A stretch of DNA of 64,000 nt from positions 199,173 through 263,172 of IMG/VR virus record IMGVR_UViG_3300045988_160394; one strand, given 5' to 3'. The first letter of the stretch is position 1. Each line of letters starts with the position of its first letter. This DNA is from a virus. The notes under the pieces are model-generated. The model was not told the origin of the DNA. It did no database searches and saw only the letters and a list, made by a program, of their open reading frames with translations. A program made the translations under genes and the position numbers. Of this stretch, positions 1 through 58,271 are shown in pieces.

Positions 1-2721
1 TTTAAATATACTATCTTTATTAAATGTCATTTCAAATGACACTCTCATACAATCATCTATAAATATTTCATTAGGTTTTAAAGGATTGTTTTTATCGTTC
101 TTACCTAATACTTCTTTTATGTTAGACCAGTCTTCATTATTTATAGATTCTAAATTTAACTTTAAGCTAAATTCCCATATAAGATGATATATATCATTAG
201 CATCTTTAGTTATTATTTCATTCATTGTTAAGTCTTTTAAATACTTAGGATTATTAAAGTCCCCTAATAAAGCATTTTGTAAAGGTAATATATAGTTCTT
301 AGTTACACTTGATAAAGCTTTGTCGTTTGTATCATAAATAAATATTCTAGACTTATCTGTATTACAAATATTCTCTTCTCTTGATCCATCTCCTACAAAT
401 AGAGGAGGATTCATCTTTATAAAATGCTTCTTCTTAACAGCATTACCTATTAAGTTTTCTATTGCTATATTAAACTTTTCATTCTTATAGTTCTCAACTG
501 AATCTAAAGCTAATGCTAATTCACTTAATGATTTAACGAATGTTTTAGCATCATCACTTAAATCTATTGAAGAAGTTGGTGTTAATAAGTTTTCATCTCT
601 ATCTTTTTTTATTTGAAGAGCATTCGCTAACCAGTTTTCATCTGGTATATAAAAACTTATTTCTCCTTTATTTACTTTAGGACCGCACTCATACCACCAT
701 GGACCAACAGTATTTTTATGAGTATAATATTGTAGATTATACTCATAGCTATTAAATTCCATAAGACTTAAGTTCGTTCCAGCTATTATAGATCTTTGAT
801 AGTAATATCTGAATATCTCCCAGTTAAAACTTTTTGCGAACATAGGAGGCATTTCTGCTAGTTTTTCATTATCTTCTTTACCTGTATCTTTATCTATAGG
901 TATATCTGGCATATAAACTTTATAGTTAAATTCTTTTAAAGTTAATATTACTTTTAATAGTCTAGGGAAACCTTCTACGTTTTGAATACTCATATTTGAT
1001 AAAGCAACAGCTTCTATTCCTAATACATCATTTATATAACCGTTCTCTATAGGCAAGAAAGGAGCTATTTTGAATTGGGCTATTAAACTTCTTAAGCCAT
1101 CCATTTTATATTCAAAAGATGTTCCATTAGGACTTGTATAAACATAGTCTATTCCATTTATACCAACGTCTTCGTAAAAGTATAATGTTAGTTCTAACAT
1201 TTGCTCATTATGTCCTTTATGTTTAGCTTGAGTACCTTTACTTCTCATATTAGGTATTCTTTCATAAGTACATTGAGTAATGTTTCTTATACTTTCTGGC
1301 GGTATAAGCATTAAAGTATCTCCTATGAATAATGCACAATTTCTAACTTTAGTAAAATCTATTCCTGTTAATTCTTTATGAAGTTTTAATCTATCTTCAT
1401 AAGATTTTTCTGATATCTTATTGAAACTATCTAACCATTCTATATTATTTCTATCATATGACCATAAATTAAATGAATCAGATATTCCTGAACCAATAGC
1501 TTGTAATTCTGGAGAGCTATTAAATTTAGGATTAGCTATAGTTGATTCTGTATTACATAAAACATATTTATTTAAGTTTATCCATTTACCTTCATATTTT
1601 ACATAAACAACTCCTAGAGATCTTTTATAGTTATCCATTCCATATGGTATATAATTATAATTTGTTATAGGAAGGTCTCCATAATACATATCCCATTCTT
1701 TAATCATAAAATCGACAGTATCTTTTAAATAATAAATGCTGTTAAAAGTTCTATCATCATTATCTGAATTAGTTTTACTTGCTTTAATTCCGTTTGCATT
1801 TAAAACTAGAACTATCTCTTCAGATTTTTCTAAAACTTTTCTAGCAGCTTCTTGAGCTTTATAAGCATCTTTAATAGTGTTAGAAGTAGATTCGTCTTTT
1901 TGCCCCATAACAATAAAGTACTTATATCCATCTTTTTTATTTATATATGGATTAGCACTCATTCTAGTTATTATTTCAGTGTATAAAGTTTTATCTCCAC
2001 TTTCTCCTACTTTTCATAAAGTTACTTTGTCGTCATTTTTTCTTTCTGTAACTTTACCACTTTTTCTATCGTAATTTAAGTTTTCATAAGTTATAAGAGT
2101 TTTACCATTAATCATCTCTTTCATTTTACCGAAGGTTGTTTCTGTTACTCTTTTATCATAGTCTTCTTCTCTGCATAGTTGTACTTCATAGTGAGGTATT
2201 TCCATAGAGTCTATACCTAATGCTCTGACTTGTATTGATTGTCCTCCACCCATCTTTTTAAAGAAGTCTCTAAAGTTATTGTACTTTACACTTTCAGAAC
2301 CATTAGTAAACATTATAGGTTGATTACCATCATTTATATCTTCTAATCTAAAAGACCATGTATCTCCGTCAAACTTATTTAAATCTCAAGTAGACCCATT
2401 TTTATCTATATCAGCTTTATTAGCTTTTAATACGAAAGCTCCTTCTTCTGAATAATGTCCTGGATTAGTAGAGAACGGTGCTTCTACATAAAAGTATGAA
2501 TCTAATATTTCTTTATCAGAATATTCACCATCTGTATTTTTATCTACGTATTGTTGATAAATTTCTGACATTAAATCTTCTTGCATCATTTCATCCATAT
2601 CAGGAGTTAAAAACTTTTTAGGATTTACAGTATTAAAGTCGCTTCTATTATTAGCCATACTAATATATTTTTCTTTATTCTCTTTTAGTTTTTTTAGTAT
2701 GTCTTTATTATCTTGACCCAT
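1..2721 (-). CDS. Large virion-associated protein, first 907 codons (continues beyond left edge); needs TGA=sense
   Basis: ATG 2719-2721 lies behind AAAGGAG. The frame stays open to position 1; I scanned every codon and found no TAA/TAG. The only breaks are in-frame TGA at 2386-2388 and 2014-2016. These join track ORFs 2386..2721 and 2014..2313 to an unlisted open frame 1..2013. Weak staphylococcal-nuclease-like motif QVRALGIDSMEIPH. Confidence 0.75.
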
Positions 2722-12037: not shown

Positions 12038-15000
12038 TTAAAATAACATTGAAACCAATCCTTGAATACCTGATTGGACACCGTATTCGCCTATTTTTTT
12101 AACATCACTAGCAGTTTGACTTATGTCTCCAACTATTCATAGTCCTGGTGCACTAGTAGGACTCATAGATATATTTTGTAAAGAAACTCCTAATCCAGAC
12201 ATTGCTGTTACCATATTAGAAGCATATTTGATACCACCTGTACCTTTATCAAATTTATGAATGTCTGGTGCATCTTGATATTGAGCTTTTCCTTTCTCTG
12301 ATTCGTAATATCCGAAATCAGATAATAACATACCTTCGTTCTGAATAGTTTTCATTTTAACATGTTTCAAATTAACGTTAGGTTTCCAACCTCTTCAGTT
12401 CATACCAGGTAGTTTATGCTTTTTGAAAAACTTCCTGTTACTATCTACTTTTTTTACTTTCTCTCTTCAAGCTATTTGTAGAGGTTTCCTTAAATATTCT
12501 GGTAAAGATTTAAGGATTTTTTTTCTTTCGTTCTTATCAGTTTCATTCATAAAGTTTATAAAATAATCTTTATATTGATCTGGTATTGACGCTAAGATTT
12601 CATCTTGTGTAGCTCCTTCTGATAATCCATAAATAGTAGATTCCATTGCTTTCTTGTAAGCAACTGCTGCCTTAGTATACTTACCACCTTTAAGCATGGT
12701 TTGTTGTGATTGTAAAGCCTGTATCTTATTGTTAATCTTCATCATTTGTTGATCATATTCATATCCACCAGCTGTATATTTATTACTCAACTTTTCGGCC
12801 TTTTTAATCAATTTAGCAACTTTTTCTTTATTTTTATCTATTTTTCTAAAAGCTTTCTTTATATTTACGCTTCCTTCGAAAACAAAAGCTCTTAAAGCAG
12901 CTTGATTATATAAGCCTTTATATTTCACATATTCTAATCTATCAAAATATTCATCTAGTTCAAATTTCTTTTCAACTTTCTTAGGTATTCATTTTCTTCT
13001 AAACATGTCTTTATCAAAATCAGGATTCTTAATAGCTGATACACCTAATCCAACTAAAGCACCTATAGCTGCACCTTTACCATGTCCTAATTCATCTAAT
13101 TTTAAATATCTAGATAATGTTTCTCCAGCAAAAGCAAATGATGCTGTTGCTTTCAATGGATTTTCAGCATTATTTCATCCTCATGCTAAAGACCCTAAAA
13201 CTGCTCCAACTTCTGCTCCTACTTCTATATTAGTTTTCTTTCTTATATTAGTAGTTCTAACTCCTAAGTTCCATAAAGCAGCAGTACCCATTCCAAGTAA
13301 AGCTGTAGGGTTAGTTGCAGCCATTAATGCTCCTGCTCCATATTTTAAATAAGATTCACTAGTTAGTTTCCCTATATTCATAAATAAAGCAGCGGAAGCT
13401 ACTGCACCTGCATGTTGTAACATAGACTGTCCTGATATTCTATTAAACGCAGGTTTTACGAATCCTTCAATAGGATGATCCCAAGTAGTTAATGAGTTAC
13501 CATAAATTTGTTCATTCATGAAAGATTCTCTAGCTGTTTCTATTTTTAAATACTTATTATGAAGGAATGGAATATTAGCATGACCAATAACTTCTTGAAT
13601 AGCTCCTAATGTTTCTTGCATAGCTGAAACATTTGCTAAATAACCTATGGCACTTGTATCTTCTTTATCTTTAGTTGCCATTCCTCTTTCTATTAATGTC
13701 TTGTTAATATTAGTTCCTAATCCATCTGTATCATATATAACAGCATTAGTAATTAATCCATCTTCTAATCTTTTTATAGCATTAGCTGATGTTCTATAGT
13801 TAATATGTTGACCTACATCTAATACATCATGGACATCAGCATCTTTATCTAAAACAATACCTCCAAGATTAAGTTTTTCTCCTGAAGCTAATTCTACAAT
13901 AGAACCATTGATGCTTTTAACTACACCTTTTTTCATTTTTACATTATTACGTATATATCTGTAATTAAAGAATTCATGGTTCCCTGACATTTTATTAGCC
14001 CTTTGTTGAATCTCTTTCATCTCTTCTATTAACTCAGGGTCTTTTACAGTATTTCTAGCAATGTTTCTCCATATCTTATATTCTTGTGATGATGGTGCTA
14101 TGTCTGCTAATATTTTAAATCTATCAAATGCACCATATTCACCAAACTCATCTGAATGAAGTTTATTAAGAGTTTCGTATCCTTTACCAGGTAATCTCAT
14201 TTCTCCTTTAGGTAATGAAGTAAATGGGTCCCCTGTTAAGAATCTTTCAGGTAATCATTCAGGCATATTATTTCTTAATGGATTATATCTAATAATAGAC
14301 TTATCTTCTGATGGAAAGAAACGTCTAGCTATCTCCATTAATTCTCCACCAAAACCACCTATTTGAGAATCTCAGAATCCTCTAGAGAAACTTGTCATTG
14401 CTCCTGCATCAGCATATCTCATTTTATAGCTATCTTCTCCAAAAGCAAAGTCTCCTAAGAATCCATATATACCAGATAGCTGTTTAGCAGAATATATTCC
14501 ATCTTGCATAAAATTAGTTACAAGACTTTTATTAACCAAACCAGGGTCATATATATCACTATAATATTCTGAATTTCTAACATTCATTTGATTAACAAGA
14601 TTAGTGTATACATAAGTACCTTTAGTCTTATCAGGTAATACACCTTTATTGTATGCTGGGTTAGATTCATAACCAGTTAAATAATTCGCTGCTTTTTTAA
14701 TATACTTATTTAATCCAGAAACTATTTGTCTAGCTATTACTCCTGTTTCTTGAGATTGGCTAGATATTGTTTGTACAATAGGGCTATTAGGATCTATTGC
14801 TTGTGTTTTATCGAATGCTGGATTAACATCTCCATTAGGAACATTTAAATGATTAAAAGATTCAACATCATTTTCTACAAAACCTACTCCAGGAGAAGAA
14901 ACTTCTCCATGAGAAATGTTTATATTCATATGGCCGTCTCCTGGATTACCATATGGAACATACTTAGCATTTCTTACATCAGTACCTTCAAAAATTAAAA

Positions 15001-49795: not shown

Positions 49796-51646
49796 ATGAT
49801 GAAAATATTATTAAACAACAACAACAATGGAGCAAATACTTTAATGGAGGCTGTTTCAAACGAAATGATGAAAATAACAGAAGCATCTAAGTTTAATGTT
49901 GCTAATGGTGTAGCAGGATTATATAACAGTGAAAAGAGAATAGATAAGAGAATGTTAGATTATTTAACAAAAGTAGATACTAGAAAGCTAGATAACATAC
50001 AAAGAGCTTTCGCAGTAACATCTTTTGCGACAGGTTCAATGGTAGGTATAACTACTATTGGTATAGAAGCAGCTTTAACTTTAGCTACTTCAACTTATCA
50101 ATATTTAGATAAAGATGGGAAGGTAAATGCTAAGAAAGTTGAAAGAGTTGTTAAGAACATAGGTGAAAAGCCAGAAGCTGGATATAGATATGTATCAGTG
50201 TTTAATTACAATGTAAACAAGGCTTTAGCTATATCTAAGTTCAGCAGAGCTTCAATATTTATAAGAGTATCTGCTCATGAAATAAAAGAGTTCCAAAAGA
50301 GAATAAGAAAGATTGATATGACAGCTATCCAACCAGAAGATCTTGTTACAATAGCATATGACATGGATATCATAGGTAGAGCTCTTCAAGAGTTATCTAT
50401 AGACGTTACTAAGGATAAATCAAAAGATATTGGTTATGATATCAATTCATTAATCAATATGACTAATAAAACAAAGTCTAACATTATTAAGAATACAGTT
50501 GTTAAAAACAACATAGAAGATATAATATCAGAAAAGATATTTAAAGGAACAGTTTCTAAAAAATACTCAATGGAAGCTATAATAGATGGTAAACCAATGA
50601 GTGAAGTAGATGTTAATGATAAAGATGAATTAAATAGTGCTTACATCGATAATTTAGGTGGAGATTGTAAAGACGCTATAAATGCTGGTTACATGAAAGG
50701 ATTCGAGCCTATTGTTGAGTTATTAAAAGTAAGCAATAATGATGCTTACCAAGTATTCAAGAACAGAGTAGTAACAGCTTCTCAAAACTCTAACCAAAAG
50801 GATGTTATTATGAATCAAATAATAACTGCTGCTAGAGTTGCTATGGATATCATTAATAATCTATATGGTAAGAAGCAATATGACAATACTATAACAAGCA
50901 GCTATATCAAAGAAGTTGCTGCTAAATTAAGAAATGCTATATACACTGTAGGAGCTAAATATGGAGTAGATCCAGTTAACACAGTTAAGATAGCTATGTC
51001 AGCTCCATTTGCTAAAATAGTTAACGGAGAATTAAAAGTAAAAGAAAGACCAACTAGCTTAAGAGCTATATTAGACATCTTCCCAAAAGAATTTGTAGTA
51101 GAATATGTATGTAATCCATATGATACAGAACAAAGCAAAAGAGAAGTAGCTGAATCAGCTTGTTACTTAACTGTTACATTCTCTGATTATGATTTATGCT
51201 TAGGAGATGAATTAGATTTCGAAGATAGTTTATCTATGACTGAGTATGGTATGGTTTCAATTAAAGAAAAATTCTCAGGTAAAGCTGTTGTTACAGAAGA
51301 AGGATTAAAAGCTGTTGTTGATATATACGCATTTGAATATACTGATGCTGTATTCTTAAGTGAAATATATACAAATAACGAACAAAGTTTTAATGCTCCA
51401 TTTGTACAACCAGTTTGCTTTACAAAAAATAGTGATGAATCTAATATAGAAACATCAATAGAAATGAACGCTATAAGAGAGAAAATAGACACTTGCTTAG
51501 ACGCAGGTACTAACGGTGTTCTATTATGTGTAAAAACAAAAGAGGGGAACTTATCAAAGATAGGTAGATTAGCTTTCCCTTATCAAGGAAAAATTAGAAT
51601 AAAAGATTATATAATAAATACATCTTGTGGAGTTGTATTATTATAA
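49796..51646 (+). CDS. Hypothetical early protein (616 aa)
   Basis: Intact ORF with RBS AGGAGG and TAA stop. No family recognised by eye. Confidence 0.65.
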   Translation: MMKILLNNNNNGANTLMEAVSNEMMKITEASKFNVANGVAGLYNSEKRIDKRMLDYLTKVDTRKLDNIQRAFAVTSFATGSMVGITTIGIEAALTLATSTYQYLDKDGKVNAKKVERVVKNIGEKPEAGYRYVSVFNYNVNKALAISKFSRASIFIRVSAHEIKEFQKRIRKIDMTAIQPEDLVTIAYDMDIIGRALQELSIDVTKDKSKDIGYDINSLINMTNKTKSNIIKNTVVKNNIEDIISEKIFKGTVSKKYSMEAIIDGKPMSEVDVNDKDELNSAYIDNLGGDCKDAINAGYMKGFEPIVELLKVSNNDAYQVFKNRVVTASQNSNQKDVIMNQIITAARVAMDIINNLYGKKQYDNTITSSYIKEVAAKLRNAIYTVGAKYGVDPVNTVKIAMSAPFAKIVNGELKVKERPTSLRAILDIFPKEFVVEYVCNPYDTEQSKREVAESACYLTVTFSDYDLCLGDELDFEDSLSMTEYGMVSIKEKFSGKAVVTEEGLKAVVDIYAFEYTDAVFLSEIYTNNEQSFNAPFVQPVCFTKNSDESNIETSIEMNAIREKIDTCLDAGTNGVLLCVKTKEGNLSKIGRLAFPYQGKIRIKDYIINTSCGVVLL

Positions 51647-51655
51647 GATAAAGAT

Positions 51656-51690
51656 AAGGCATGACTTACATAGTTGTGCCTTTTATTATA
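51656..51690 (+). terminator. Rho-independent-type terminator
   Basis: AAGGCA-(15 nt)-TGCCTT followed by TTTATTAT. Confidence 0.5.
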
Positions 51691-51744
51691 CTCAAAGATA
51701 TAAAATAAGAATGCAAAGAAAATAATAAAGTGAGGTAAAGAAAG

Positions 51745-52908
51745 ATGAAAAAGATAGCAATAGAAATAATGGAAAGACAATTACAAGAAAGAAAGGAAGC
51801 TGCAACTAGTATTATAAACAACACAATAGAAGCATTAAAAGTATTAGGACAAGAAGAGTTATTATCTTCAAATGTAGTAGAAGTAGAGAAAGAAAAAATA
51901 GTAGAAGTTAAAGTTCCAGTTGAAGTAGATAAGAGTGAATTAGAAGCTTTAAAAGTAAAAAATGCAGAAGCTGAAGCTATTATCAAATCATTAAAGAAAG
52001 AATTAGCTAATGAAAAGAGAAAGGCTACTAACAGTAACAAGAGAGTAGATAAATTAAAAGAACAAGTTTCTGAATTAAAATCAGATGTTAAAGGTTTATC
52101 TAAGATAGCTGATAAAAATAAAGAGCTTGTAGAAGAGAATAAATACTTAAAAGATATGATTACAAAATTAGAAGCTAAATTAAACATGAAAACAAATGCT
52201 GAATTTAAAGTACCAGTGAAGAATAAAGAAACAGTTAAGAAGCAAACTCCTGTTCAAATTAATAGCGATTTGAAAATTTATTCAAACAATAACATAAGTA
52301 TATTAGCTCAATATAAAAATGTTATATTTGAAGCTTCTAAAAGAATGGATGCAATAACCATATATGATCCAAGTATGTACGGTATGAAAGAAGAAATAAA
52401 AGCTGCACTAGAATCAGCTAAATTATTTACTCAAGCTAGAGATGTAAAAGACCATGACAGAATAGAAACTGAAATAGGTTCATGTCATGCTATATCTAAG
52501 ACTAAGTATATGGGATTCGTTATGGATAACGGTAAAGCTATTTGTTATGTATACGAACCAAGTAAATATGATACAGCTAAAGCTATTTTAATAAACAAAA
52601 GATTAAATAACACTAGTATTAAATATGAACCAGCTACAGAATCTCAACAAGCTCTTATTAACAATTTAGTAGCTCAACATGTAGCTGCTAATAATAAGAG
52701 AATGGAGCAACTTTCTCAAGATGCATATACTGGTTTAGGGTTAGATTTCTTAGATGGAAATAATAATCAACAAACAGTTAGTAATAGTGCTCCTAGTGTT
52801 AGCTTAAACTTTACAAAACAACCTGAACAAACTGCACCTTCAACTAATAGTCCTGAAGAGGATATGATGGCTGAATTTGCTAGAATGTTAGATGGTTTAA
52901 ATGCATAA
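51745..52908 (+). CDS. Hypothetical protein (387 aa) with N-terminal coiled coil
   Basis: Intact ORF with RBS GAGGT. Heptad-rich residues 1-150. TAA stop. Confidence 0.65.
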   Translation: MKKIAIEIMERQLQERKEAATSIINNTIEALKVLGQEELLSSNVVEVEKEKIVEVKVPVEVDKSELEALKVKNAEAEAIIKSLKKELANEKRKATNSNKRVDKLKEQVSELKSDVKGLSKIADKNKELVEENKYLKDMITKLEAKLNMKTNAEFKVPVKNKETVKKQTPVQINSDLKIYSNNNISILAQYKNVIFEASKRMDAITIYDPSMYGMKEEIKAALESAKLFTQARDVKDHDRIETEIGSCHAISKTKYMGFVMDNGKAICYVYEPSKYDTAKAILINKRLNNTSIKYEPATESQQALINNLVAQHVAANNKRMEQLSQDAYTGLGLDFLDGNNNQQTVSNSAPSVSLNFTKQPEQTAPSTNSPEEDMMAEFARMLDGLNA

Positions 52909-53205
52909 GCGTTACCTTTCCCCTGCGGGGGTAGTTTCTCACGTTAAGCCCTACGGGTTTGAGTTAAAAGTAACTACCTTCGGTTATCGAGAAATTAGAA
53001 ATATTTCTTTCTATGACAAGTTAGCTCCGCTTCGCTACGCTAACTGTTAGAAAGAAGAAAACTCGCTTCGCTCGTAAGAAATAGAGCGTTTTGTGAGTAT
53101 TCGTGAGAAGAGTGCTTCTCTTTGGTGGGTAAAACCACCAACGGTTGTACTTAGCTCTACGAGTGCCATAAGAAATCATAAAAGAAATAGTACTTCTTTT
53201 TGATT
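52909..53205 (+). ncRNA. Unclassified GC-rich structured RNA island (about 300 nt, at least 6 hairpins, several UNCG tetraloops)
   Basis: Noncoding in all frames and far more GC-rich than its flanks. Hairpins and helices read directly:
- CCCC-UGCG-GGGG;
- GGUAGUU...AACUACC enclosing CUCA[..AAGCCC-UAC-GGGUUU..]UGAG;
- C-UUCG-G;
- a 16-bp bipartite helix UUCUUUCUA..AGUUAGC-(13 nt)-GCUAACU..UAGAAAGAA (53005-53056);
- CGCUC-(10 nt)-GAGCG;
- GAGAAG-AGUG-CUUCUC;
- GGUGG-GUAAAA-CCACC.
The stable loops are UNCG only on the plus strand. Confidence 0.6.
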
Positions 53206-53247
53206 ATAAACTAAATCAATTATATTAAATTAAAGGAGGTATTCACA

Positions 53248-53730
53248 ATGAATACAAATACAACTATCAAGAAAAGAATATTTACTATGGCTATGAGAGG
53301 CAACACTGCTATCTTAACAGACAGTAGTAATCCTCAATCTACTATCTCATTTAAAGGAGAAAACTTATCTATTATTGGCTTACAACTATTAAATAAGCTA
53401 TTAGAAAGTATGCCAACTCAAAGATTAAACTATAAAGTAGCAGTATTATTACCACATACTGTAGTTATTCCTACATTCGAAAATACTAGAAATGCATGGA
53501 TTGCTAATGGTAAAACTAAGACTGGTAATGATATAGAACCTGCTAAGCTTCATGAAGTTATTAGACTTAATGAGCTATTAAGAGTTAAAGGTCATAACGT
53601 AGAAATCTTTGACCAAAGCAAACTAACTAGTGTAATGTATAAATCATTTACTAGAAAGACATGGGAGCTTATGGATAAGATAGTACCAAAAGCAGAGGCA
53701 GAAGATTGCAATGCATTTATGGTTCAATAA
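53248..53730 (+). CDS. Hypothetical early protein (160 aa), distant paralog of 55406..56248
   Basis: Intact ORF with RBS AAAGGAGG. Shared block ANGKTKTGNDIEPAKLHEVIRLNELL vs RTGKTKSGTQLTGQEMQAFKDVYKMI. Confidence 0.6.
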   Translation: MNTNTTIKKRIFTMAMRGNTAILTDSSNPQSTISFKGENLSIIGLQLLNKLLESMPTQRLNYKVAVLLPHTVVIPTFENTRNAWIANGKTKTGNDIEPAKLHEVIRLNELLRVKGHNVEIFDQSKLTSVMYKSFTRKTWELMDKIVPKAEAEDCNAFMVQ

Positions 53731-53760
53731 TATTATTATGAGTCAGTGAAATATCTGGCT

Positions 53761-53821
53761 CTTTCTGTCGTGGAAGATACAGTCCACCTGATGATGGCTA
53801 TTAGGTAGCCGAAACAGAAAT
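53761..53821 (+). ncRNA. Hammerhead ribozyme, type III (open stem III)
   Basis: Layout: UUUCUGU-C^ (stem III 5' strand, GUC triplet, cleavage after C53769); GUGGA-AGAUACAG-UCCAC (stem I); CUGAUGA; extra U; GGCUA-UUAGG-UAGCC (stem II); GAAA; CAGAAA (stem III 3' strand). All invariant core nucleotides are present. Confidence 0.85.
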
Positions 53822-53846
53822 ATTATTACATTATGAGGTGATTGAT

Positions 53847-54269
53847 ATGAAAATATTTATACCAGCTTACGAAGGAATATCTGGATTATATACTGTAGAA
53901 GAAATAAGAGAAGGAGAAAACTTCTATTATGATAATGGATCTATGGTAAACATATATGACAACTATTTTATTGTTATCAATAACAATGGAATAATCGAGT
54001 ACGAAAGTGATGAAGGATTATACAGCATATTTGTTATGTGTTCTGATGAAGAAATAAAATTCTTAGAACAATTTACAGATATAGGATCTAAAAAGATTTT
54101 AGAGAGAATGTTAGAGCGTAGAATGTATTACGCTAATCTTAAAAAATCTGTAGATGGTAAAACATGTCCTGTATGTGGAAAGAAACTATCCGAATCTAAT
54201 ATAGATGCTGGAATAAGAAATCTATTCTGCAATAATTGTAAGCATAGTGAAACTATTTGCATAGATTAG
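53847..54269 (+). CDS. Hypothetical early protein (140 aa) with C-terminal zinc ribbon
   Basis: ATG lies after GAGGTGATTGAT. Motif CPVCGKKL...FCNNCKH. The G of the TAG stop is the first nt of the next ribozyme. Confidence 0.6.
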   Translation: MKIFIPAYEGISGLYTVEEIREGENFYYDNGSMVNIYDNYFIVINNNGIIEYESDEGLYSIFVMCSDEEIKFLEQFTDIGSKKILERMLERRMYYANLKKSVDGKTCPVCGKKLSESNIDAGIRNLFCNNCKHSETICID

Positions 54270-54329
54270 TCGAAACGGTAGAAATACCGTCGTACAGGGA
54301 TGGCTTCCTGTGCCTGATGATGACAAGCC
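54269..54329 (+). ncRNA. Hammerhead ribozyme, type II (open stem II) with loop I pseudoknot
   Basis: Layout: GUC-GAAA; ACGGUA-GAAA-UACCGU (stem III with GNRA loop); C^ (cleavage after C54291); GUACAGG-GAUGGCUU-CCUGUGC (stem I); CUGAUGA; extra U; GAC (pairs with the 5' GUC); AAGCC, which is complementary to GGCUU in loop I. Confidence 0.8.
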
Positions 54330-54363
54330 AAACTATATTTGAATTTAAAGGAGATTGATTGAT

Positions 54364-54921
54364 ATGAAAACAAAATTCACATTAAAAGGATTAGAAATAG
54401 GAAACATTAAGATAGGAGATATCGTTGTTGAAGGCGAATACTTTGTTAAAGAGGCATGGGGTATGAAAAACCTAATTAAAGGAACAGTTGAAGATTTGTT
54501 ACACAACATGCCAAAATATCTTGATCAAGTATCTACAATAAACAACAAGTACGAAGAACTATCTAGAAAAGAATTCTTAAAGAAAGTAGACCATATTCGT
54601 ACTAGAATTAATGGAGCTAAAACTATAGAAGAATTAGATAGTATCTGTAAATGCTATTACGAAATATGTCCATTTAGTATGCATAGTGAAATAGATGCTC
54701 TTCATAACCAAAGATATCATGAGTTAAGAAGATATTCTGATGATGAAATTAAAGAGCTAAAAAAAGAAATAGAGTCTTCAGGTACAATTACAGGTATTGC
54801 AAGACTTATCAATATTGTTAAGAGTGAAGTTATTCCTGATAAATATAGAGACGAATTGTTAGCTATGGTTGACAGGAAACACTCAGAAATATTATTTAAA
54901 TATACAACAAGTATGAATTAG
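54364..54921 (+). CDS. Hypothetical early protein (185 aa)
   Basis: ATG lies after AAAGGAGATTGATTGAT. The TAG stop overlaps the start of the next ribozyme. Confidence 0.6.
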   Translation: MKTKFTLKGLEIGNIKIGDIVVEGEYFVKEAWGMKNLIKGTVEDLLHNMPKYLDQVSTINNKYEELSRKEFLKKVDHIRTRINGAKTIEELDSICKCYYEICPFSMHSEIDALHNQRYHELRRYSDDEIKELKKEIESSGTITGIARLINIVKSEVIPDKYRDELLAMVDRKHSEILFKYTTSMN

Positions 54922-54986
54922 TCGAAACGGTATAGAAATATGCCGTCGTGTAGAGATAGCCTACTACACCTGATGATGACAGGCTA
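54921..54986 (+). ncRNA. Hammerhead ribozyme, type II with loop I pseudoknot (second copy)
   Basis: Layout: GUC-GAAA; ACGGUAUA-GAAA-UAUGCCGU (stem III, 2 bp longer than copy 1); C^ (cleavage after C54947); GUGUAG-AGAUAGCCUA-CUACAC (stem I); CUGAUGA; extra U; GAC; AGGCUA, which is complementary to UAGCCU in loop I. Stems I and III and the pseudoknot all covary relative to 54269..54329. Confidence 0.8.
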
Positions 54987-55019
54987 AATAATATTTTAAT
55001 TTAAAGGAGATTGATTAAT

Positions 55020-55280
55020 ATGACAAATTGGAAAATTACAAAAATAACAACAGGAGTAGCAACTGAAGAAGAGGTAAAAGGATGGGAAGAAATAGAAAAT
55101 GATGACATCTGTCCTGTATGTGGATCAAAAATGATTGATGATGAAGAAGAACAATTATTACAACATACTGAATGTCCTATATGTGGTTACTTTGAAAACA
55201 TCTACGGTAATGCTATAGATTTCTATGGTAAAGAATGTTTCGAAGAAAAGAAAAAAGAAATAGGTCTTTTAAATGAATAA
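55020..55280 (+). CDS. Hypothetical early zinc-ribbon protein (86 aa)
   Basis: ATG lies after AAAGGAGATTGATTAAT. Motif CPVCGSKM...ECPICGY. TAA stop. Confidence 0.6.
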   Translation: MTNWKITKITTGVATEEEVKGWEEIENDDICPVCGSKMIDDEEEQLLQHTECPICGYFENIYGNAIDFYGKECFEEKKKEIGLLNE

Positions 55281-55297
55281 TTAGGGAGTTCTCTCCC

Positions 55298-55356
55298 TTC
55301 TTCTAATGTAGCCAATGACGGTCACAAGCCCGTATAAGAAATACAGAGTGGAAGAA
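55298..55356 (+). ncRNA. Twister ribozyme (P1-type arrangement)
   Basis: Sequence: UUCUUC U^AA UGUA GCCAAUG ACGG UCACAAGC CCGU AUAAGAAA UACA GA GUG GAAGAA. Pairings: P1 UUCUUC/GAAGAA, P2 UGUA/UACA, P4 ACGG/CCGU, pseudoknot CAC/GUG. Conserved blocks UAA, GCCAAUG, UC.CAAGC and AUAA match the rice twister as I remember it (..CUAACACUGCCAAUGCCGGUCCCAAGCCCGGAUAAAAGUGGAGGGGG..), with compensatory changes in every helix. Predicted cleavage between U55304 and A55305. Preceded by hairpin AGGGAG-UUCU-CUCCCU. Confidence 0.85.
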
Positions 55357-55405
55357 AATAATATTATGGGTTAAGCTTCCCTAAAAAGCATAGGAGGAAA
55401 CAATT

Positions 55406-56248
55406 ATGAAAAATGTAGTATTAGTATTCAAAGGAAATCACGCTTTAGCATTAGACAATGCTGGAACAGTTATTAAGAAGACTTCAACTGGTAGCTTTTT
55501 AGCTAACTTAGAAACTTTAGCAGAAGTTCTTAACACTATCCCTGTAGGAGATGTAGCTCCAGAAGTTACAACTATTCATATCCCTGACTTTATTCAAGGT
55601 ATAGCTTCAGGTACAGCTTTAGATTATATTAGAACTGGTAAGACTAAATCTGGTACACAATTAACTGGTCAAGAAATGCAAGCTTTTAAAGATGTGTATA
55701 AGATGATAGCAGAAAGAATCTATAACGTTAGATTAAGCTTAGCTAAGTTCATACCAAAGACTAATACAGAGTTAATAGCTTTAAGAACAAACGCTTATAA
55801 TGCTTTAACTAATTATGTTGCAAGTACTGGTGGAATGGTAATGGGAGGAATGGCTCCAGCTTCACAAGTAATTGACCCTGATAAAGCTTTAAGAGAAGCA
55901 TTAGATGCTCAAATCATAGAAGCTATTAATAAGGGAGATATGGATAAGATAATGCAATTAAAAGCTATGAGAGATACATTAAAGCAACCAACTATGGTTC
56001 AAGGTACTGCTCCTGTAGCTCAACCAACTAATAGTTATGTGCCTACACCAAACTTTGGAATGGAAAGCACTACAGCTCCAACAGAAAATAATACTGCTGT
56101 TGCACAAGATAGTAATAACCAACCAATAGCTACACCTGAAGAAACTCAACAACAAGCTCAAGCTCCAGTAGAAAATGCAGGTACTGATGTTAGTTTCACT
56201 AATACAACTACAACTGATGCAAGTAACATCAACTGGGCTAATGTTTAA
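55406..56248 (+). CDS. Hypothetical early protein (280 aa), Q/T/P/A-rich C-terminal half
   Basis: Intact ORF with RBS AGGAGG and TAA stop. Confidence 0.65.
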   Translation: MKNVVLVFKGNHALALDNAGTVIKKTSTGSFLANLETLAEVLNTIPVGDVAPEVTTIHIPDFIQGIASGTALDYIRTGKTKSGTQLTGQEMQAFKDVYKMIAERIYNVRLSLAKFIPKTNTELIALRTNAYNALTNYVASTGGMVMGGMAPASQVIDPDKALREALDAQIIEAINKGDMDKIMQLKAMRDTLKQPTMVQGTAPVAQPTNSYVPTPNFGMESTTAPTENNTAVAQDSNNQPIATPEETQQQAQAPVENAGTDVSFTNTTTTDASNINWANV

Positions 56249-56261
56249 TTAATAGCTAATA

Positions 56262-56294
56262 AAGCCTCTATTAATATAGGGGCTTCTTTATATT
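56262..56294 (+). terminator. Rho-independent-type terminator
   Basis: AAGCCUCU-(8 nt)-AGGGGCUU followed by CUUUAUAUU. Confidence 0.55.
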
Positions 56295-56335
56295 ATCAAA
56301 AATAAAATTATAAGAAGAAAAAGGAGACGATTGAA

Positions 56336-57097
56336 ATGAAAATTATAAAAGGATCACAAAAAATGTTAGAGGAATTACAAGCAAACTTATTTAATATGTT
56401 ATCAGAAGAAGGACATGAATTAAACGGAAGTGAAGCAGACGGATATGCATTAAAGATAGACGAGGAAGTATTTAATGATAACCAAAGAAGAATAATTGAA
56501 GTAGCTATGAAAGCTAGAATAAACGCAGGAGTATTAGATCCATCAGCTTATACAATAGATGAAGAATTAGTTAAGAATAGTTTCTCATTAATAGCTGACT
56601 CTCAAGAAAAGATGGAAATAATCCAAACAGATATATTAAGAGGAGCTAAGATACCAGAAGAAAATATAGTAATATTATTACAACCATGGGCTCCAGAAAT
56701 GTATAGTACATTCTCATACTTAGTAATAGCATTTGGTTTAAGTAACGATCAAATGAAGGCAGTACAATTATCAGCTAAAGCAGCTAAGACTGGATTAAAG
56801 ATAACACAAGCTACTAAGAAAGCAGCTATGATAGCAGGTTCTACTGGTAATGTTGTAAACAGAGTAGGTAGAGAAGTAACTTTAGCTGGTGTTGAAATAG
56901 GAGCTACTATTGGTGCAGGTATGGTTAAGACTGGTATAGAAGCAGCTGCATGTGCTGTTAATATAGGCATTAGAGATCTTAATCCTAGAGAGTTAGCTAA
57001 AGGAGAAAATGTACAAAGATTAGGTAAAACAATTAAAAGTTTATTTAAGAAGAACGGTGAATCACAACAAATAACTAATGGATTTGCTGCTCTATAG
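56336..57097 (+). CDS. Hypothetical protein (253 aa) with Gly/Ala-rich hydrophobic C-terminal region
   Basis: Intact ORF with RBS AAAGGAG and TAG stop. Confidence 0.65.
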   Translation: MKIIKGSQKMLEELQANLFNMLSEEGHELNGSEADGYALKIDEEVFNDNQRRIIEVAMKARINAGVLDPSAYTIDEELVKNSFSLIADSQEKMEIIQTDILRGAKIPEENIVILLQPWAPEMYSTFSYLVIAFGLSNDQMKAVQLSAKAAKTGLKITQATKKAAMIAGSTGNVVNRVGREVTLAGVEIGATIGAGMVKTGIEAAACAVNIGIRDLNPRELAKGENVQRLGKTIKSLFKKNGESQQITNGFAAL

Positions 57098-57720: not shown

Positions 57721-58075
57721 AGTATATATAAGGGAGGGGCGTAAGCCCCGACCGATTTAAAAAGTATTTATATCTACGAGCTAATATATATATTGCGAGC
57801 GTCAGCGAGCAACCATATAACATTATATATTATTACTCAGAAATAGAAATATCTTTTAGAAATATAACTATTTTTGCTTATATTTTTATCTACTTATTGT
57901 GATATGAAGTTTATTACAACTAAACTTTTACGAAAAAAGTGTTTAACTTTTACGTACTTTTGTTTGGTATTACTAAACTTTTACCCTTTTTCTGCTTTTT
58001 TAGTTACCCTCGTTTTAAATAATATTATTGAAATTTATTATTTTGTCGAGGAGGAACTACCCCCGCCCGTATGTT
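57721..58075 (+). other. Noncoding region: two GC-rich structured ends flanking an AT-rich core with direct repeats
   Basis: Left end: GGGGC-GUAA-GCCCC (GNRA hairpin) and GCGAGC-GUCA-GCGAGC. Right end: UAGUUACCCUCG-(34 nt)-CGAGGAGGAACUA hairpin, then CCCCCGCCCG. Track ORF 57874..58077 has no RBS and is low-complexity. Confidence 0.5.
57919..57985 (+). repeat. Three direct repeats (A/G)(C/T)T(A/T)AACTTTTAC(G/C) in the AT-rich noncoding core
   Basis: ACTAAACTTTTACG (57919-57932), GTTTAACTTTTACG (57941-57954) and ACTAAACTTTTACC (57972-57985), spaced 22 and 31 nt start to start. Confidence 0.6.
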
Positions 58076-58271
58076 AAAGTCATATATGGAAATAAGGATG
58101 AAAGTTCCGTTTTGAAGAAATGAGCTATATCAAGGGATAAGAAGGCACTTTTCAGCATAAATACTATAAAAACCGCTATTTTAGGTATAAATGTCTAATA
58201 AGTAAATAAAACAAAAACAAATATAATTACATACGTATATCTATGTATATACACATAAGGAGGTAAATAAA

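What the first reader, a model, noticed from the sequence alone, without database searches (positions are those of the whole stretch)
53761..53821. Complete type III hammerhead ribozyme in the spacer after gene 53248..53730
All conserved core elements are present in the canonical order: GUC cleavage triplet, CUGAUGA, GAAA. The stems are 7 bp (III), 5 bp (I) and 5 bp (II).

One deviation is an extra U between A9 of CUGAUGA and the first stem II pair (CUGAUGA-U-GGCUA...UAGCC-GAAA). The same insertion occurs in the two type II copies downstream, so it is a family trait and not an error.

Cleavage after C53769 would separate the upstream ORF from the next gene. That gene's RBS lies 60 nt downstream of the cut.
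Basis: partly seen in the sequence, partly recalled or inferred. Interest (0 to 1): 0.7.

Follow-up and report, generated by a model that had tools for sequence, protein, structure and literature searches.

The report
Phage hammerhead ribozyme in ribozyme array
The spacer holds a real, complete type III hammerhead self-cleaving RNA, the first of four ribozymes that separate small genes in one operon of an uncultured large phage; this arrangement is already known from phages, so the find is solid but ordinary.

Summary
Window 53762-53820 (+) folds as a complete type III hammerhead. It has a GUC cleavage triplet (cut after C53769), CUGAUGA and GAAA. Stems III, I and II are 7, 5 and 5 bp. There is one extra U (53795) between A9 and G10.1.

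Rfam's Hammerhead_3 model matches it end to end, but at 30.4 bits, below the 48.5-bit cutoff. A covariance model built from 11 unrelated phage hammerheads with the same extra U hits the 64-kb window only here (42.5 bits, E~7e-10). Orthologues and one paralogue in related metagenomic phage contigs keep the core. They show three compensatory pair changes in stems I and II.

In related phages, 0-3 [ribozyme + small gene] modules sit between two conserved genes. Every gene junction there carries one self-cleaving ribozyme.

The most likely role is cutting a ~4.6-kb polycistronic transcript into single-gene mRNAs. Each upstream piece would end in a hairpin. Clustered hammerheads flanking phage genes were described in 2011 (Perreault et al.). 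An extra nucleotide at this core position is known from a viroid hammerhead. This is a new member of a known kind. Cleavage itself is untested.

The parts
53762..53820 (+). Type III hammerhead ribozyme, complete. Stem III is 53762-68/53814-20, stem I 53770-74/53783-87, and stem II 53796-800/53806-10. The core is CUGAUGA 53788-94 and GAAA 53811-14.
   Evidence: Sequence. Rfam RF00008 full-length match at 30.4 bits. Independent model R1 at 42.5 bits, E~7e-10, the only hit in the window. Compensatory changes in orthologues.
53769..53770 (+). Predicted scissile bond: C17 (53769) would keep a 2',3'-cyclic phosphate and G53770 would get a 5'-OH.
   Evidence: Position of the GUC triplet relative to the core. 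The chemistry comes from established hammerhead knowledge and was not tested here.
53795..53795 (+). Extra U between A9 and G10.1 of the catalytic core.
   Evidence: Shown as an insert in the Rfam alignment. Shared with both type II copies and with 14 independent viral type III hammerheads. An extra nucleotide at this position is known in the CChMVd(+) hammerhead, where a U raises the trans-cleavage rate 3-4 fold (PMC3705267).
53740..53761 (+). 7-bp hairpin (GAGUCAG-UGAAAUAU-CUGGCUC) abutting the 5' strand of stem III. It would be the 3'-terminal hairpin of the upstream cleavage product, and it resembles a terminator.
   Evidence: Flagged as terminator-like. It contributes -10 kcal/mol. It is 100% conserved in L245 although the gene before it has diverged. 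The L250 paralogue has a hairpin of different sequence in the same place. Such hairpins are enriched before independent type III hammerheads: 12/29 versus 11% background.
53248..53730 (+). Upstream gene (160 aa, no known family).
   Evidence: ORF list. No Pfam or PHROG match. Homologues at 42-99% identity in related phage contigs.
53847..54269 (+). Downstream gene (140 aa, CxxC zinc-ribbon-like, no known family). Its SD GAGGUG is at 53835-40.
   Evidence: ORF list and sequence. Only two homologous protein clusters in 5.8 billion proteins.
54268..54333 (+). Type II hammerhead, copy 1, with the same extra U. The cut is after C54291. A 6-bp pseudoknot forms between loop I UGGCUU and tail AAGCCA. 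It overlaps the UAG stop of the 140-aa gene.
   Evidence: Rfam RF02276 at 40.4 bits, above the gathering score of 37. Descriptor scan.
54364..54921 (+). Cassette gene (185 aa, no known family).
54920..54988 (+). Type II hammerhead, copy 2, with the same extra U. The cut is after C54947. The pseudoknot is UAGCCU/AGGCUA, compensatory relative to copy 1. It overlaps the UAG stop of the 185-aa gene.
   Evidence: Descriptor scan: stems I, II and III of 6, 3 and 8 bp. Sequence. A near-identical copy lies before the g280 homologue in L251.
55020..55280 (+). Cassette gene (86 aa, two CxxC motifs).
55300..55354 (+). Twister-P1 ribozyme (no P3). The predicted cut is after U55304. It is preceded by an abutting hairpin at 55283-55298.
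   Evidence: Rfam RF03160 at 49.1 bits (gathering score 67.2), E 1.4e-10 locally and 6.8e-8 over the whole window. Orthologues in L246 (48.5 bits) and L250.
55406..56248 (+). Conserved 280-aa gene that closes the ribozyme-punctuated segment. It is followed by a terminator-like hairpin at 56262-56285.

Best explanation
Window 53762-53820 encodes a genuine type III hammerhead self-cleaving ribozyme, transcribed as part of a + strand operon. The operon runs roughly from 51.7 to 56.3 kb in an uncultured large myovirus of a low-GC Firmicute-like host.

Predicted course of events:
1. The RNA folds as it is made into the three-way junction.
2. The 2'-OH of C53769 attacks its own 3' phosphate. This chemistry is established for the class and is inferred here, not shown.
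3. The cut leaves ...hairpin(53740-61)-UUUCUGUC with a 2',3'-cyclic phosphate on the mRNA of the 160-aa gene.
4. It leaves a 5'-OH G53770, already paired in stem I, at the head of the mRNA of the 140-aa gene.

The extra U53795 is a bulged variant of the core. It is common in phage hammerheads and is compatible with catalysis.

Two type II hammerheads and a twister-P1 ribozyme occupy the next three spacers. Together the four ribozymes would cut one polycistronic transcript into single-gene mRNAs. Each mRNA would end in a hairpin and begin with a structured 5'-OH end. This would uncouple the stability and translation of small, frequently exchanged cassette genes.

Shown here: the motif, its statistical significance, its conservation with compensatory changes, and one ribozyme at every gene junction in five related gene layouts. 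Inferred: the cleavage itself and its effect on mRNA fate.
For: - All 13 core nucleotides, the A15.1-U16.1 pair, H17 = C and the three stems are present.
- The independent covariance model R1, built from 11 unrelated IMG/VR hammerheads carrying the same extra U, hits the window only here: 42.5 bits, E~7e-10, next best 10.5 bits.
- That family shows strong covariation. 94% of cells are paired, against 63% when shuffled and 33-49% when slid. 115 cells have changes on both sides, against 34 expected.
- Orthologues keep the core. L251/L252 change stem II G-C to A-U. The L250 paralogue changes stem I GUGGA/UCCAC to GUGAG/CUCAC. Other changes fall in loops or at the outer end of stem III.
- L245 keeps the whole spacer 100% identical, while the upstream gene has dropped to 42% amino-acid identity.
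- The neighbouring spacers hold RF02276 (40.4 bits, above gathering), a second type II hammerhead and RF03160 twister, all in sense orientation.
- Across five gene layouts (window, L240, L250, L251, L246), every junction between g160 and g280 has exactly one self-cleaver, whatever its class.
- Published work: clustered type I/II/III hammerheads flank genes in prophages, and three such arrays cleave in vitro (PMC3088659).
- Published work: an extra residue between A9 and G10.1 is tolerated, and a U there speeds trans-cleavage 3-4 fold (PMC3705267).
Against: - No cleavage data exist for this RNA.
- The Rfam score (30.4) is below the curated threshold (48.5). The element is not reported in whole-window Rfam scans.
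- The minimum-free-energy fold of the whole spacer is a competing structure (-30.1 kcal/mol, against -26.4 for the hammerhead plus hairpin). It pairs the 3' strand of stem I and the core with the SD region (one search shows a different competing fold for the 71-nt core region).
- I could not identify a convincing loop I-loop II tertiary contact, which fast natural hammerheads need at physiological Mg2+.
- The orthologues are close relatives, so only three compensatory events support this exact locus.
- The biological role of phage ribozyme arrays is still described as elusive in the literature (PMC6765202).
Confidence: 0.85

Rival explanations
1. The motif is a decayed or crippled hammerhead that no longer cleaves, because the extra U in the core and the missing loop-loop contact inactivate it. 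On this view it survives only as hitch-hiking sequence.
For: - The Rfam score is sub-threshold.
- Most core insertions tested by Perreault et al. lower activity.
- No tertiary contact was found.
- A competing fold is more stable in silico.
- One relative (L250:4510-4568) does carry a visibly degenerate copy, with A16.2, a broken stem III and 16.3 bits.
Against: - The same U insertion recurs in type II hammerheads at at least 119 viral loci, and in many independent type III hammerheads whose stems covary.
- A U at this exact position raised activity in the CChMVd hammerhead.
- Compensatory changes keep stems I and II in the orthologues.
- The degenerate L250 copy shows what decay looks like, and there an intact type II hammerhead has taken over the junction.
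Confidence: 0.07
2. The ribozymes mark mobile or recombining gene cassettes. Their main significance would be as conserved joints for exchanging [ribozyme + gene] modules between phages. RNA cleavage would be secondary or would serve the cassette itself.
For: - The number of modules between g160 and g280 varies from 0 to 3 among close relatives.
- Homology breakpoints lie next to the ribozymes: L245 diverges about 22 nt upstream of the hammerhead, and L240 diverges right after the type II hammerhead.
- The two type II copies are direct repeats that could delete or duplicate a module.
- In L250, a type III and a type II hammerhead share one GUCGAAAC segment.
Against: - Recombination needs only sequence identity. 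It does not explain catalytic cores kept intact with compensatory stem changes.
- It does not explain why different ribozyme classes (hammerhead versus twister) occupy equivalent junctions.
- This explanation does not exclude mRNA processing.
Confidence: 0.15
3. Pairs of ribozymes excise the intervening gene as an RNA with 5'-OH and 2',3'-cyclic phosphate ends. That RNA would then be ligated, by the ribozyme's reverse reaction or by RtcB, into a circular, translatable RNA.
For: - The fragment 54292-54947 would carry complementary halves of two near-identical type II hammerheads, with the same GUC/GAC stem II.
- Perreault et al. raise this possibility.
Against: - Perreault et al. looked for circular or spliced products in comparable arrays and found none.
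- The fragment that starts at the type III hammerhead (53770-54291) has ends from two different topologies. These cannot rebuild one hammerhead.
Confidence: 0.05
4. The motif is a chance match in AT-rich intergenic DNA.
For: CUGAUGA occurs 20 times in the window, and simple descriptor hits do arise in random sequence at 0.44 per window.
Against: - Only 3 of 200 random windows gave any hit with 15 or more stem pairs.
- The independent model gives E~7e-10.
- Three more ribozymes sit in the adjoining spacers.
- The element is conserved with compensatory changes.
Confidence: 0.01

Closest known systems
Clustered hammerhead ribozymes of prophages and phages (Perreault et al. 2011, PMC3088659; for example the Clostridium scindens, Azorhizobium caulinodans and Agrobacterium tumefaciens arrays)
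   Same: Several hammerheads of mixed types (I, II, III) lie within a few kb on the coding strand. They flank single genes or short gene blocks of varying identity in phage DNA. Processing of a long transcript into gene-length mRNAs has been proposed, and the published arrays cleave in vitro.
   Different: This array mixes a type III hammerhead, two type II hammerheads and a twister in four consecutive spacers. All three hammerheads carry an extra U after A9. The host phage is an unclassified large myovirus with no nucleotide match in GenBank phages. Nothing has been tested biochemically.
Rfam RF00008 Hammerhead_3 (type III hammerheads of viroids, satellites, plants and bacteria)
   Same: The core, topology and stem arrangement are the same. 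The match covers model positions 1-54 with no non-canonical pairs.
   Different: It scores 30.4 bits against a gathering score of 48.5. It has a one-nucleotide insert after CUGAUGA and an 8-nt loop I, and it lacks the loop sequences typical of the seed.
CChMVd (+) hammerhead with an extra A10 between A9 and G10.1 (De la Pena & Flores 2001, as summarised in PMC3705267 and PMC1636495)
   Same: One extra nucleotide sits at exactly the same core position. The engineered U version was 3-4 fold faster in trans.
   Different: That is a viroid RNA replicon, the natural extra residue is A, and the residue also has a structural role in the viroid. Here the residue is U, the context is a DNA phage mRNA, and the variant is widespread in viral contigs.
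Rfam RF02276 type II hammerheads and RF03160 twister-P1 ribozymes found near each other in bacterial and phage DNA (basis of the ribozyme-association searches reviewed in PMC6765202)
   Same: The neighbours of this element are exactly these classes, and they sit at equivalent gene junctions.
   Different: These are neighbours, not the element itself. They differ from it in topology (type II) or fold (twister).

Membership tests
Hammerhead ribozyme (class) | Conserved core C3 U4 G5 A6 N7 G8 A9 and G12 A13 A14 | tested here: met
   CUGAUGA is at 53788-94 and GAA at 53811-13.
Hammerhead ribozyme (class) | A15.1-U16.1 pair and a cleavage-site nucleotide H17 that is not G | tested here: met
   A53814 pairs with U53768, and C53769 is H17, giving a GUC triplet.
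Hammerhead ribozyme (class) | Three helices radiating from the core, with Watson-Crick pairs next to the core (N1.1-N2.1, N10.1-N11.1) | tested here: met
   G53770-C53787 and G53796-C53810 form those pairs. Stems I, II and III are 5, 5 and 7 bp with no mismatches.
Hammerhead ribozyme (class) | Strict consensus core with no inserted nucleotides | tested here: not met
   The extra U53795 lies between A9 and G10.1. This deviation is documented as tolerated in CChMVd. It recurs in many covarying viral hammerheads. It therefore lowers strict consensus membership but not the functional reading.
Hammerhead ribozyme, type III topology | Stems I and II closed by loops, with stem III open so that the 5' and 3' ends lie in stem III | tested here: met
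   Loop I is 53775-82, loop II is 53801-05, and stem III is formed by the two ends.
Rfam RF00008 Hammerhead_3 | Score at or above the curated gathering threshold (48.5 bits) | tested here: not met
   It scores 30.4 bits and is absent from whole-window scans.
Hammerhead ribozyme (class) | Helices supported by covariation among homologues | tested here: met
   At this locus, three compensatory pair changes occur and none disrupts stems I or II. In the wider family with the extra U, 11 of 15 pairs show changes on both sides and 94% of cells are paired.
Hammerhead ribozyme (natural, fast-cleaving) | Tertiary contact between loop I and loop II (or a pseudoknot) that stabilises the active fold | tested here: inconclusive
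   Several family members show 3-4 bp Watson-Crick complementarity between loops I and II. For AGAUACAG and UUAGG I found no convincing pairing, and loop changes in the orthologues are not correlated.
Hammerhead ribozyme (class) | Mg2+-dependent site-specific self-cleavage giving 2',3'-cyclic phosphate and 5'-OH ends | not testable with these tools
   This needs in vitro transcription or end-specific RNA-seq.
Clustered phage/prophage self-cleaving ribozyme arrays (Perreault 2011) | Two or more self-cleaving ribozymes within a few kb, in sense orientation, flanking individual genes in phage DNA | tested here: met
   Four ribozymes lie in four consecutive spacers on the + strand. The phage context is shown by portal, capsid, sheath and terminase genes.

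The most novel reading that the evidence does not exclude
In this phage lineage, self-cleaving ribozymes act as interchangeable 'punctuation' for a hypervariable cassette region.

- Every junction between exchangeable small genes carries exactly one self-cleaver: a type III hammerhead, a type II hammerhead or a twister.
- The class can be swapped at an orthologous junction.
- Each ribozyme is built or positioned so that the upstream product ends in a hairpin plus a tail of at most 8 nt. This makes it a ribozyme-made mimic of an intrinsic-terminator 3' end.

If true, this would give a concrete, testable role for bacterial and phage hammerhead and twister ribozymes, which is still an open question. 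The role would be forming stable 3' ends without stopping transcription.
Probability: 0.3. Interest if true: 0.6.

Novelty: new member of a known kind. Interest (0 to 1): 0.33.

Why it matters
On its own, this is one more phage hammerhead. Clustered hammerheads flanking phage genes, and their association with twister ribozymes, have been known since 2011-2015.

It has three uses:
- It is a clean natural example in which three ribozyme topologies and classes sit in four consecutive spacers. Related genomes differ only in the number of [ribozyme + gene] modules. That makes it a good system for asking what such ribozymes do in vivo.
- It documents that the variant with an extra U after A9 is widespread in viral contigs, yet is penalised or missed by the current Rfam models and their default filters. 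Phage hammerheads are therefore under-annotated.
- The hairpins abutting the ribozymes suggest a testable 3'-end-formation role.

Tried and rejected
- **Rfam, whole window, gathering thresholds:** no hits at all. This is a filter artefact. Short-window scans recover the type II hammerhead above its gathering score. They also recover the type III hammerhead and the twister, both below theirs.
- **Megablast of 51000-57000 against GenBank phages:** no match.
- **Pfam and PHROGs on nine neighbouring proteins:** nothing informative.
- **The search for related loci with the 160-aa protein in IMG/VR:** no relatives.
- **tblastn of 13 window proteins against the 239 pattern-derived viral loci:** no hits. 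Those loci serve only as independent family members.
- **First version of my descriptor scan:** it missed the candidate because stem II over-extended through U-G pairs. Fixed.
- **First MAFFT alignment (A1):** it misaligned the GUC, so I discarded it and used trimmed sequences instead (A2).
- **Loop I / loop II or loop I / flank pseudoknot in the type III element:** a 5-nt match of loop I (AGAUA) to UAUCU in the upstream hairpin is broken by the U-to-A change in L241, L242 and L251 with no compensation. I rejected it.
- **Descriptor hit on the - strand at 12347-12432 (stems of 4, 3 and 4 bp):** judged to be chance.
- **Rfam scan of the structured spacer 52900-53250:** no family found.
- **Literature search for the phrase 'A9 and G10.1':** nothing found. 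The CChMVd precedent came from a second search.

Full report
**1. The observation**

The sequence at 53762-53820 (+) reads UUUCUGU-C-GUGGA-AGAUACAG-UCCAC-CUGAUGA-U-GGCUA-UUAGG-UAGCC-GAA-ACAGAAA. It has the full hammerhead core: C3-A9, G12-A14, the A15.1-U16.1 pair and C17. Its three uninterrupted helices are 7 bp (III), 5 bp (I) and 5 bp (II; 6 with a U-G pair). Stems I and II are closed by loops and stem III is open, so the topology is type III. One extra U (53795) lies between A9 and G10.1. The only slip is that the Shine-Dalgarno GAGGUG (53835-40) is 66 nt from the cut, not 60.

**2. Is it more than chance?**

- A default whole-window Rfam scan reports nothing. That result comes from the speed filters.
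- When only 106 nt are scanned, Hammerhead_3 (RF00008) matches model positions 1-54 with no non-canonical pair, at 30.4 bits and E 2.9e-5. This is below the curated 48.5-bit cutoff.
- My own descriptor scan of both strands finds this element and two type II hammerheads downstream. In 200 random windows of the same dinucleotide content, only three hits reached 15 or more stem pairs in total.
- For an independent test, I scanned IMG/VR viral contigs for CTGATGATGG...CCGAAAC. I extracted unrelated type III hammerheads with the same extra U and built covariance model R1 from 11 of them.
- With filters off, R1 hits the 64-kb window once, at 53765-53817, with 42.5 bits and E~7e-10. The next best score is 10.5 bits.
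- Across 29 hits in those loci plus the window, 94% of cells in the 15 modelled pairs form standard pairs. This compares with 63% in shuffles and 33-49% when partners are slid. There are 115 both-side changes against 34 expected. That alignment is fitted to the model, and its core was fixed by the search pattern. Stems I and III were not constrained.

**3. Orthologues**

The neighbouring proteins have very few homologues. Their contigs give related phage genomes from metagenomes, some on contigs of 124-264 kb.

- The hammerhead is present after the 160-aa gene in L240-L245 and L251-L253, and after the extra 118-aa gene that precedes g158 in L250.
- L245 keeps the whole spacer 100% identical from 22 nt upstream of the hammerhead to the next start codon. 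Its upstream gene is only 42% identical in protein.
- L251/L252 change the second stem II pair from G-C to A-U.
- The L250 paralogue changes stem I from GUGGA/UCCAC to GUGAG/CUCAC, which is two compensatory pairs.
- The remaining changes fall in loop I, in loop II or at the outer end of stem III.
- One copy, L250:4510-4568, is visibly degenerate: it has A16.2, a broken stem III and only 16.3 bits. An intact type II hammerhead that shares its GUCGAAAC segment follows immediately.

The intact core in the window is therefore being maintained.

**4. The extra U**

- Both type II hammerheads downstream have CUGAUGA-U-GAC.
- The pattern GTCGAAACGG...CTGATGATGAC occurs in at least 119 viral loci, with up to four copies per locus.
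- Literature precedent: the CChMVd(+) hammerhead has an extra A between A9 and G10.1. Replacing it with U raised the trans-cleavage rate 3-4 fold (PMC3705267 and PMC1636495).

So the insertion is a known kind of tolerated core variation, and it is common in phages.

**5. Surroundings**

The window is phage DNA. It has portal, major head, sheath and terminase genes on the - strand. The portal is 32-40% identical to those of Moorella phage MTATph1 and Bacillus phage 0305phi8-36. There is no nucleotide match in GenBank phages.

The + strand block is made of ORFans. Terminator-like hairpins at 51656-82 and 56262-85 bracket a unit of about 4.6 kb. Within it, four consecutive spacers hold:

| Spacer element | Position | Evidence |
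|---|---|---|
| Type III hammerhead | 53762-53820 | |
| Type II hammerhead, copy 1 | 54268-54333 | RF02276, 40.4 bits, above gathering |
| Type II hammerhead, copy 2 | 54920-54988 | |
| Twister-P1 ribozyme | 55300-55354 | RF03160, 49.1 bits, E 6.8e-8 over the whole window |

**6. Comparative layout**

The genes g387, g160, g280 and g253 are conserved in the relatives. The segment between g160 and g280 varies:

| Contig | Layout |
|---|---|
| L246 | g159 / twister / g311 |
| L251 | g160 / HH-III / g186 / HH-II / g272 |
| L250 | g118 / HH-III / g158 / degenerate HH-III + HH-II / g191 / twister / g261 |
| L240 | g160 / HH-III / g140 / HH-II / g116 / twister / g280 |
| window | g160 / HH-III / g140 / HH-II / g185 / HH-II / g86 / twister / g280 |

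Every junction in this segment has exactly one self-cleaver. The junction before the g280 homologue carries a twister in some genomes and a type II hammerhead in L251, in front of the same leader sequence. This argues that what is selected is cleavage at the junction, not a particular RNA fold.

**7. How it most likely works**

Established hammerhead chemistry predicts attack of the C53769 2'-OH on the adjacent phosphate. This gives a 2',3'-cyclic phosphate on the upstream RNA and a 5'-OH on G53770.

- The upstream product would end with a 7-bp hairpin (53740-61, -10 kcal/mol) plus UUUCUGUC.
- The L250 paralogue has a hairpin of different sequence at the same place.
- The twisters in the window, L246 and L250 also have an abutting upstream hairpin.
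- Type II hammerheads leave their own stem III hairpin at the 3' end of the upstream product.
- Among 29 type III hits, 12 have an abutting hairpin of at least 5 bp, against 11% of random positions.
- The downstream product starts with its 5'-OH nucleotide already paired in stem I.

I infer that the array cuts a polycistronic RNA into single-gene mRNAs with protected ends. This is the role proposed by Perreault et al. for such clusters. The field still regards it as unproven.

**8. Caveats**

- There is no biochemical evidence for this RNA.
- In silico, a competing fold pairs the 3' strand of stem I and the core with the SD region. It is 3.7 kcal/mol more stable than the hammerhead plus hairpin. 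The competing segment is transcribed only after the ribozyme is complete.
- I found no convincing loop-loop tertiary contact.

**9. Verdict**

The element is a genuine type III hammerhead carrying a common phage core variant. It is the first of four ribozymes that punctuate a variable cassette region. It is a new member of a known kind, and overall interest is modest. The comparative pattern and the abutting hairpins are the most useful leads. The unexplained conserved structured spacer at 52909-53175 may deserve its own follow-up.

Noticed in passing
window 55300-55354 (+), with hairpin 55283-55298: A twister-P1 self-cleaving ribozyme (RF03160, 49.1 bits; lacks P3) sits in the spacer before gene 55406-56248 and is preceded by an abutting hairpin. 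Orthologues occur in L246 and L250, with compensatory changes in P1.
   Followed up: yes
window 54268-54333 and 54920-54988 (+): Both type II hammerheads begin inside the UAG stop codon of the preceding gene (UAG-UC-GAAA). Both have a 6-bp pseudoknot between loop I and the 3' tail. The pseudoknot differs between the copies by compensatory changes (UGGCUU/AAGCCA versus UAGCCU/AGGCUA).
   Followed up: partly
window 52909-53175 (+): A GC-richer spacer of about 265 nt, conserved between gene 51745-52908 and gene 53248-53730, looks like a multi-helix structured RNA. RNAalifold on six orthologues gives 62 pairs, 15 of them with compensatory changes. These include a long-range helix (UUUCUCACG/CGUGAGAAG), UNCG-capped hairpins and an invariant GCUCUACGAGUGCCAU. 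There is no Rfam match at E<=1. It lies in the same operon as four self-cleaving ribozymes, so it is a candidate unknown RNA class.
   Followed up: partly
L250:4510-4625 (related phage contig): A degenerate type III hammerhead (A16.2, broken stem III) and an intact type II hammerhead overlap and share one GUCGAAAC segment. This looks like a snapshot of one topology replacing the other at the same gene junction.
   Followed up: partly
window 53730-55400 compared with L240, L245, L246, L250 and L251: The number of [ribozyme + small gene] modules between the conserved g160 and g280 genes varies from 0 to 3 among close relatives. Homology breakpoints fall next to the ribozymes. The cassette proteins are ORFans, and several have CxxC zinc-ribbon motifs.
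   Followed up: yes
window 53780-53844 (+): The minimum-free-energy fold of the spacer pairs the 3' strand of stem I and the start of the core (CAGUC.ACCU.AUGAU) with the Shine-Dalgarno region (AUUAU.AGGU.GAUUG) of the next gene. This could mask the ribosome-binding site whenever the hammerhead is not folded.
   Followed up: no
whole window (method): Rfam's default filters on the 64-kb window missed all four ribozymes, including the type II hammerhead that scores above its gathering threshold. These became visible only in scans of at most about 900 nt or with the permissive setting.
   Followed up: yes
window 57721-58271: A gene-free stretch of about 550 nt contains short GC-rich hairpin-like segments (for example GGGAGGGGCGUAAGCCCC and GGAGGAACUACCCCCGCCCG) in otherwise very AT-rich DNA. 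It could be a regulatory or origin region.
   Followed up: no
L081:2-54, 495-546 and 821-873 (- strand; unrelated IMG/VR contig): Three type III hammerheads, all with the extra U, lie in tandem about 330-490 nt apart. L025, L032, L101 and L103 pair a type III hammerhead carrying the extra U with a type II hammerhead within about 1 kb. Mixed arrays are therefore recurrent in viral contigs.
   Followed up: partly
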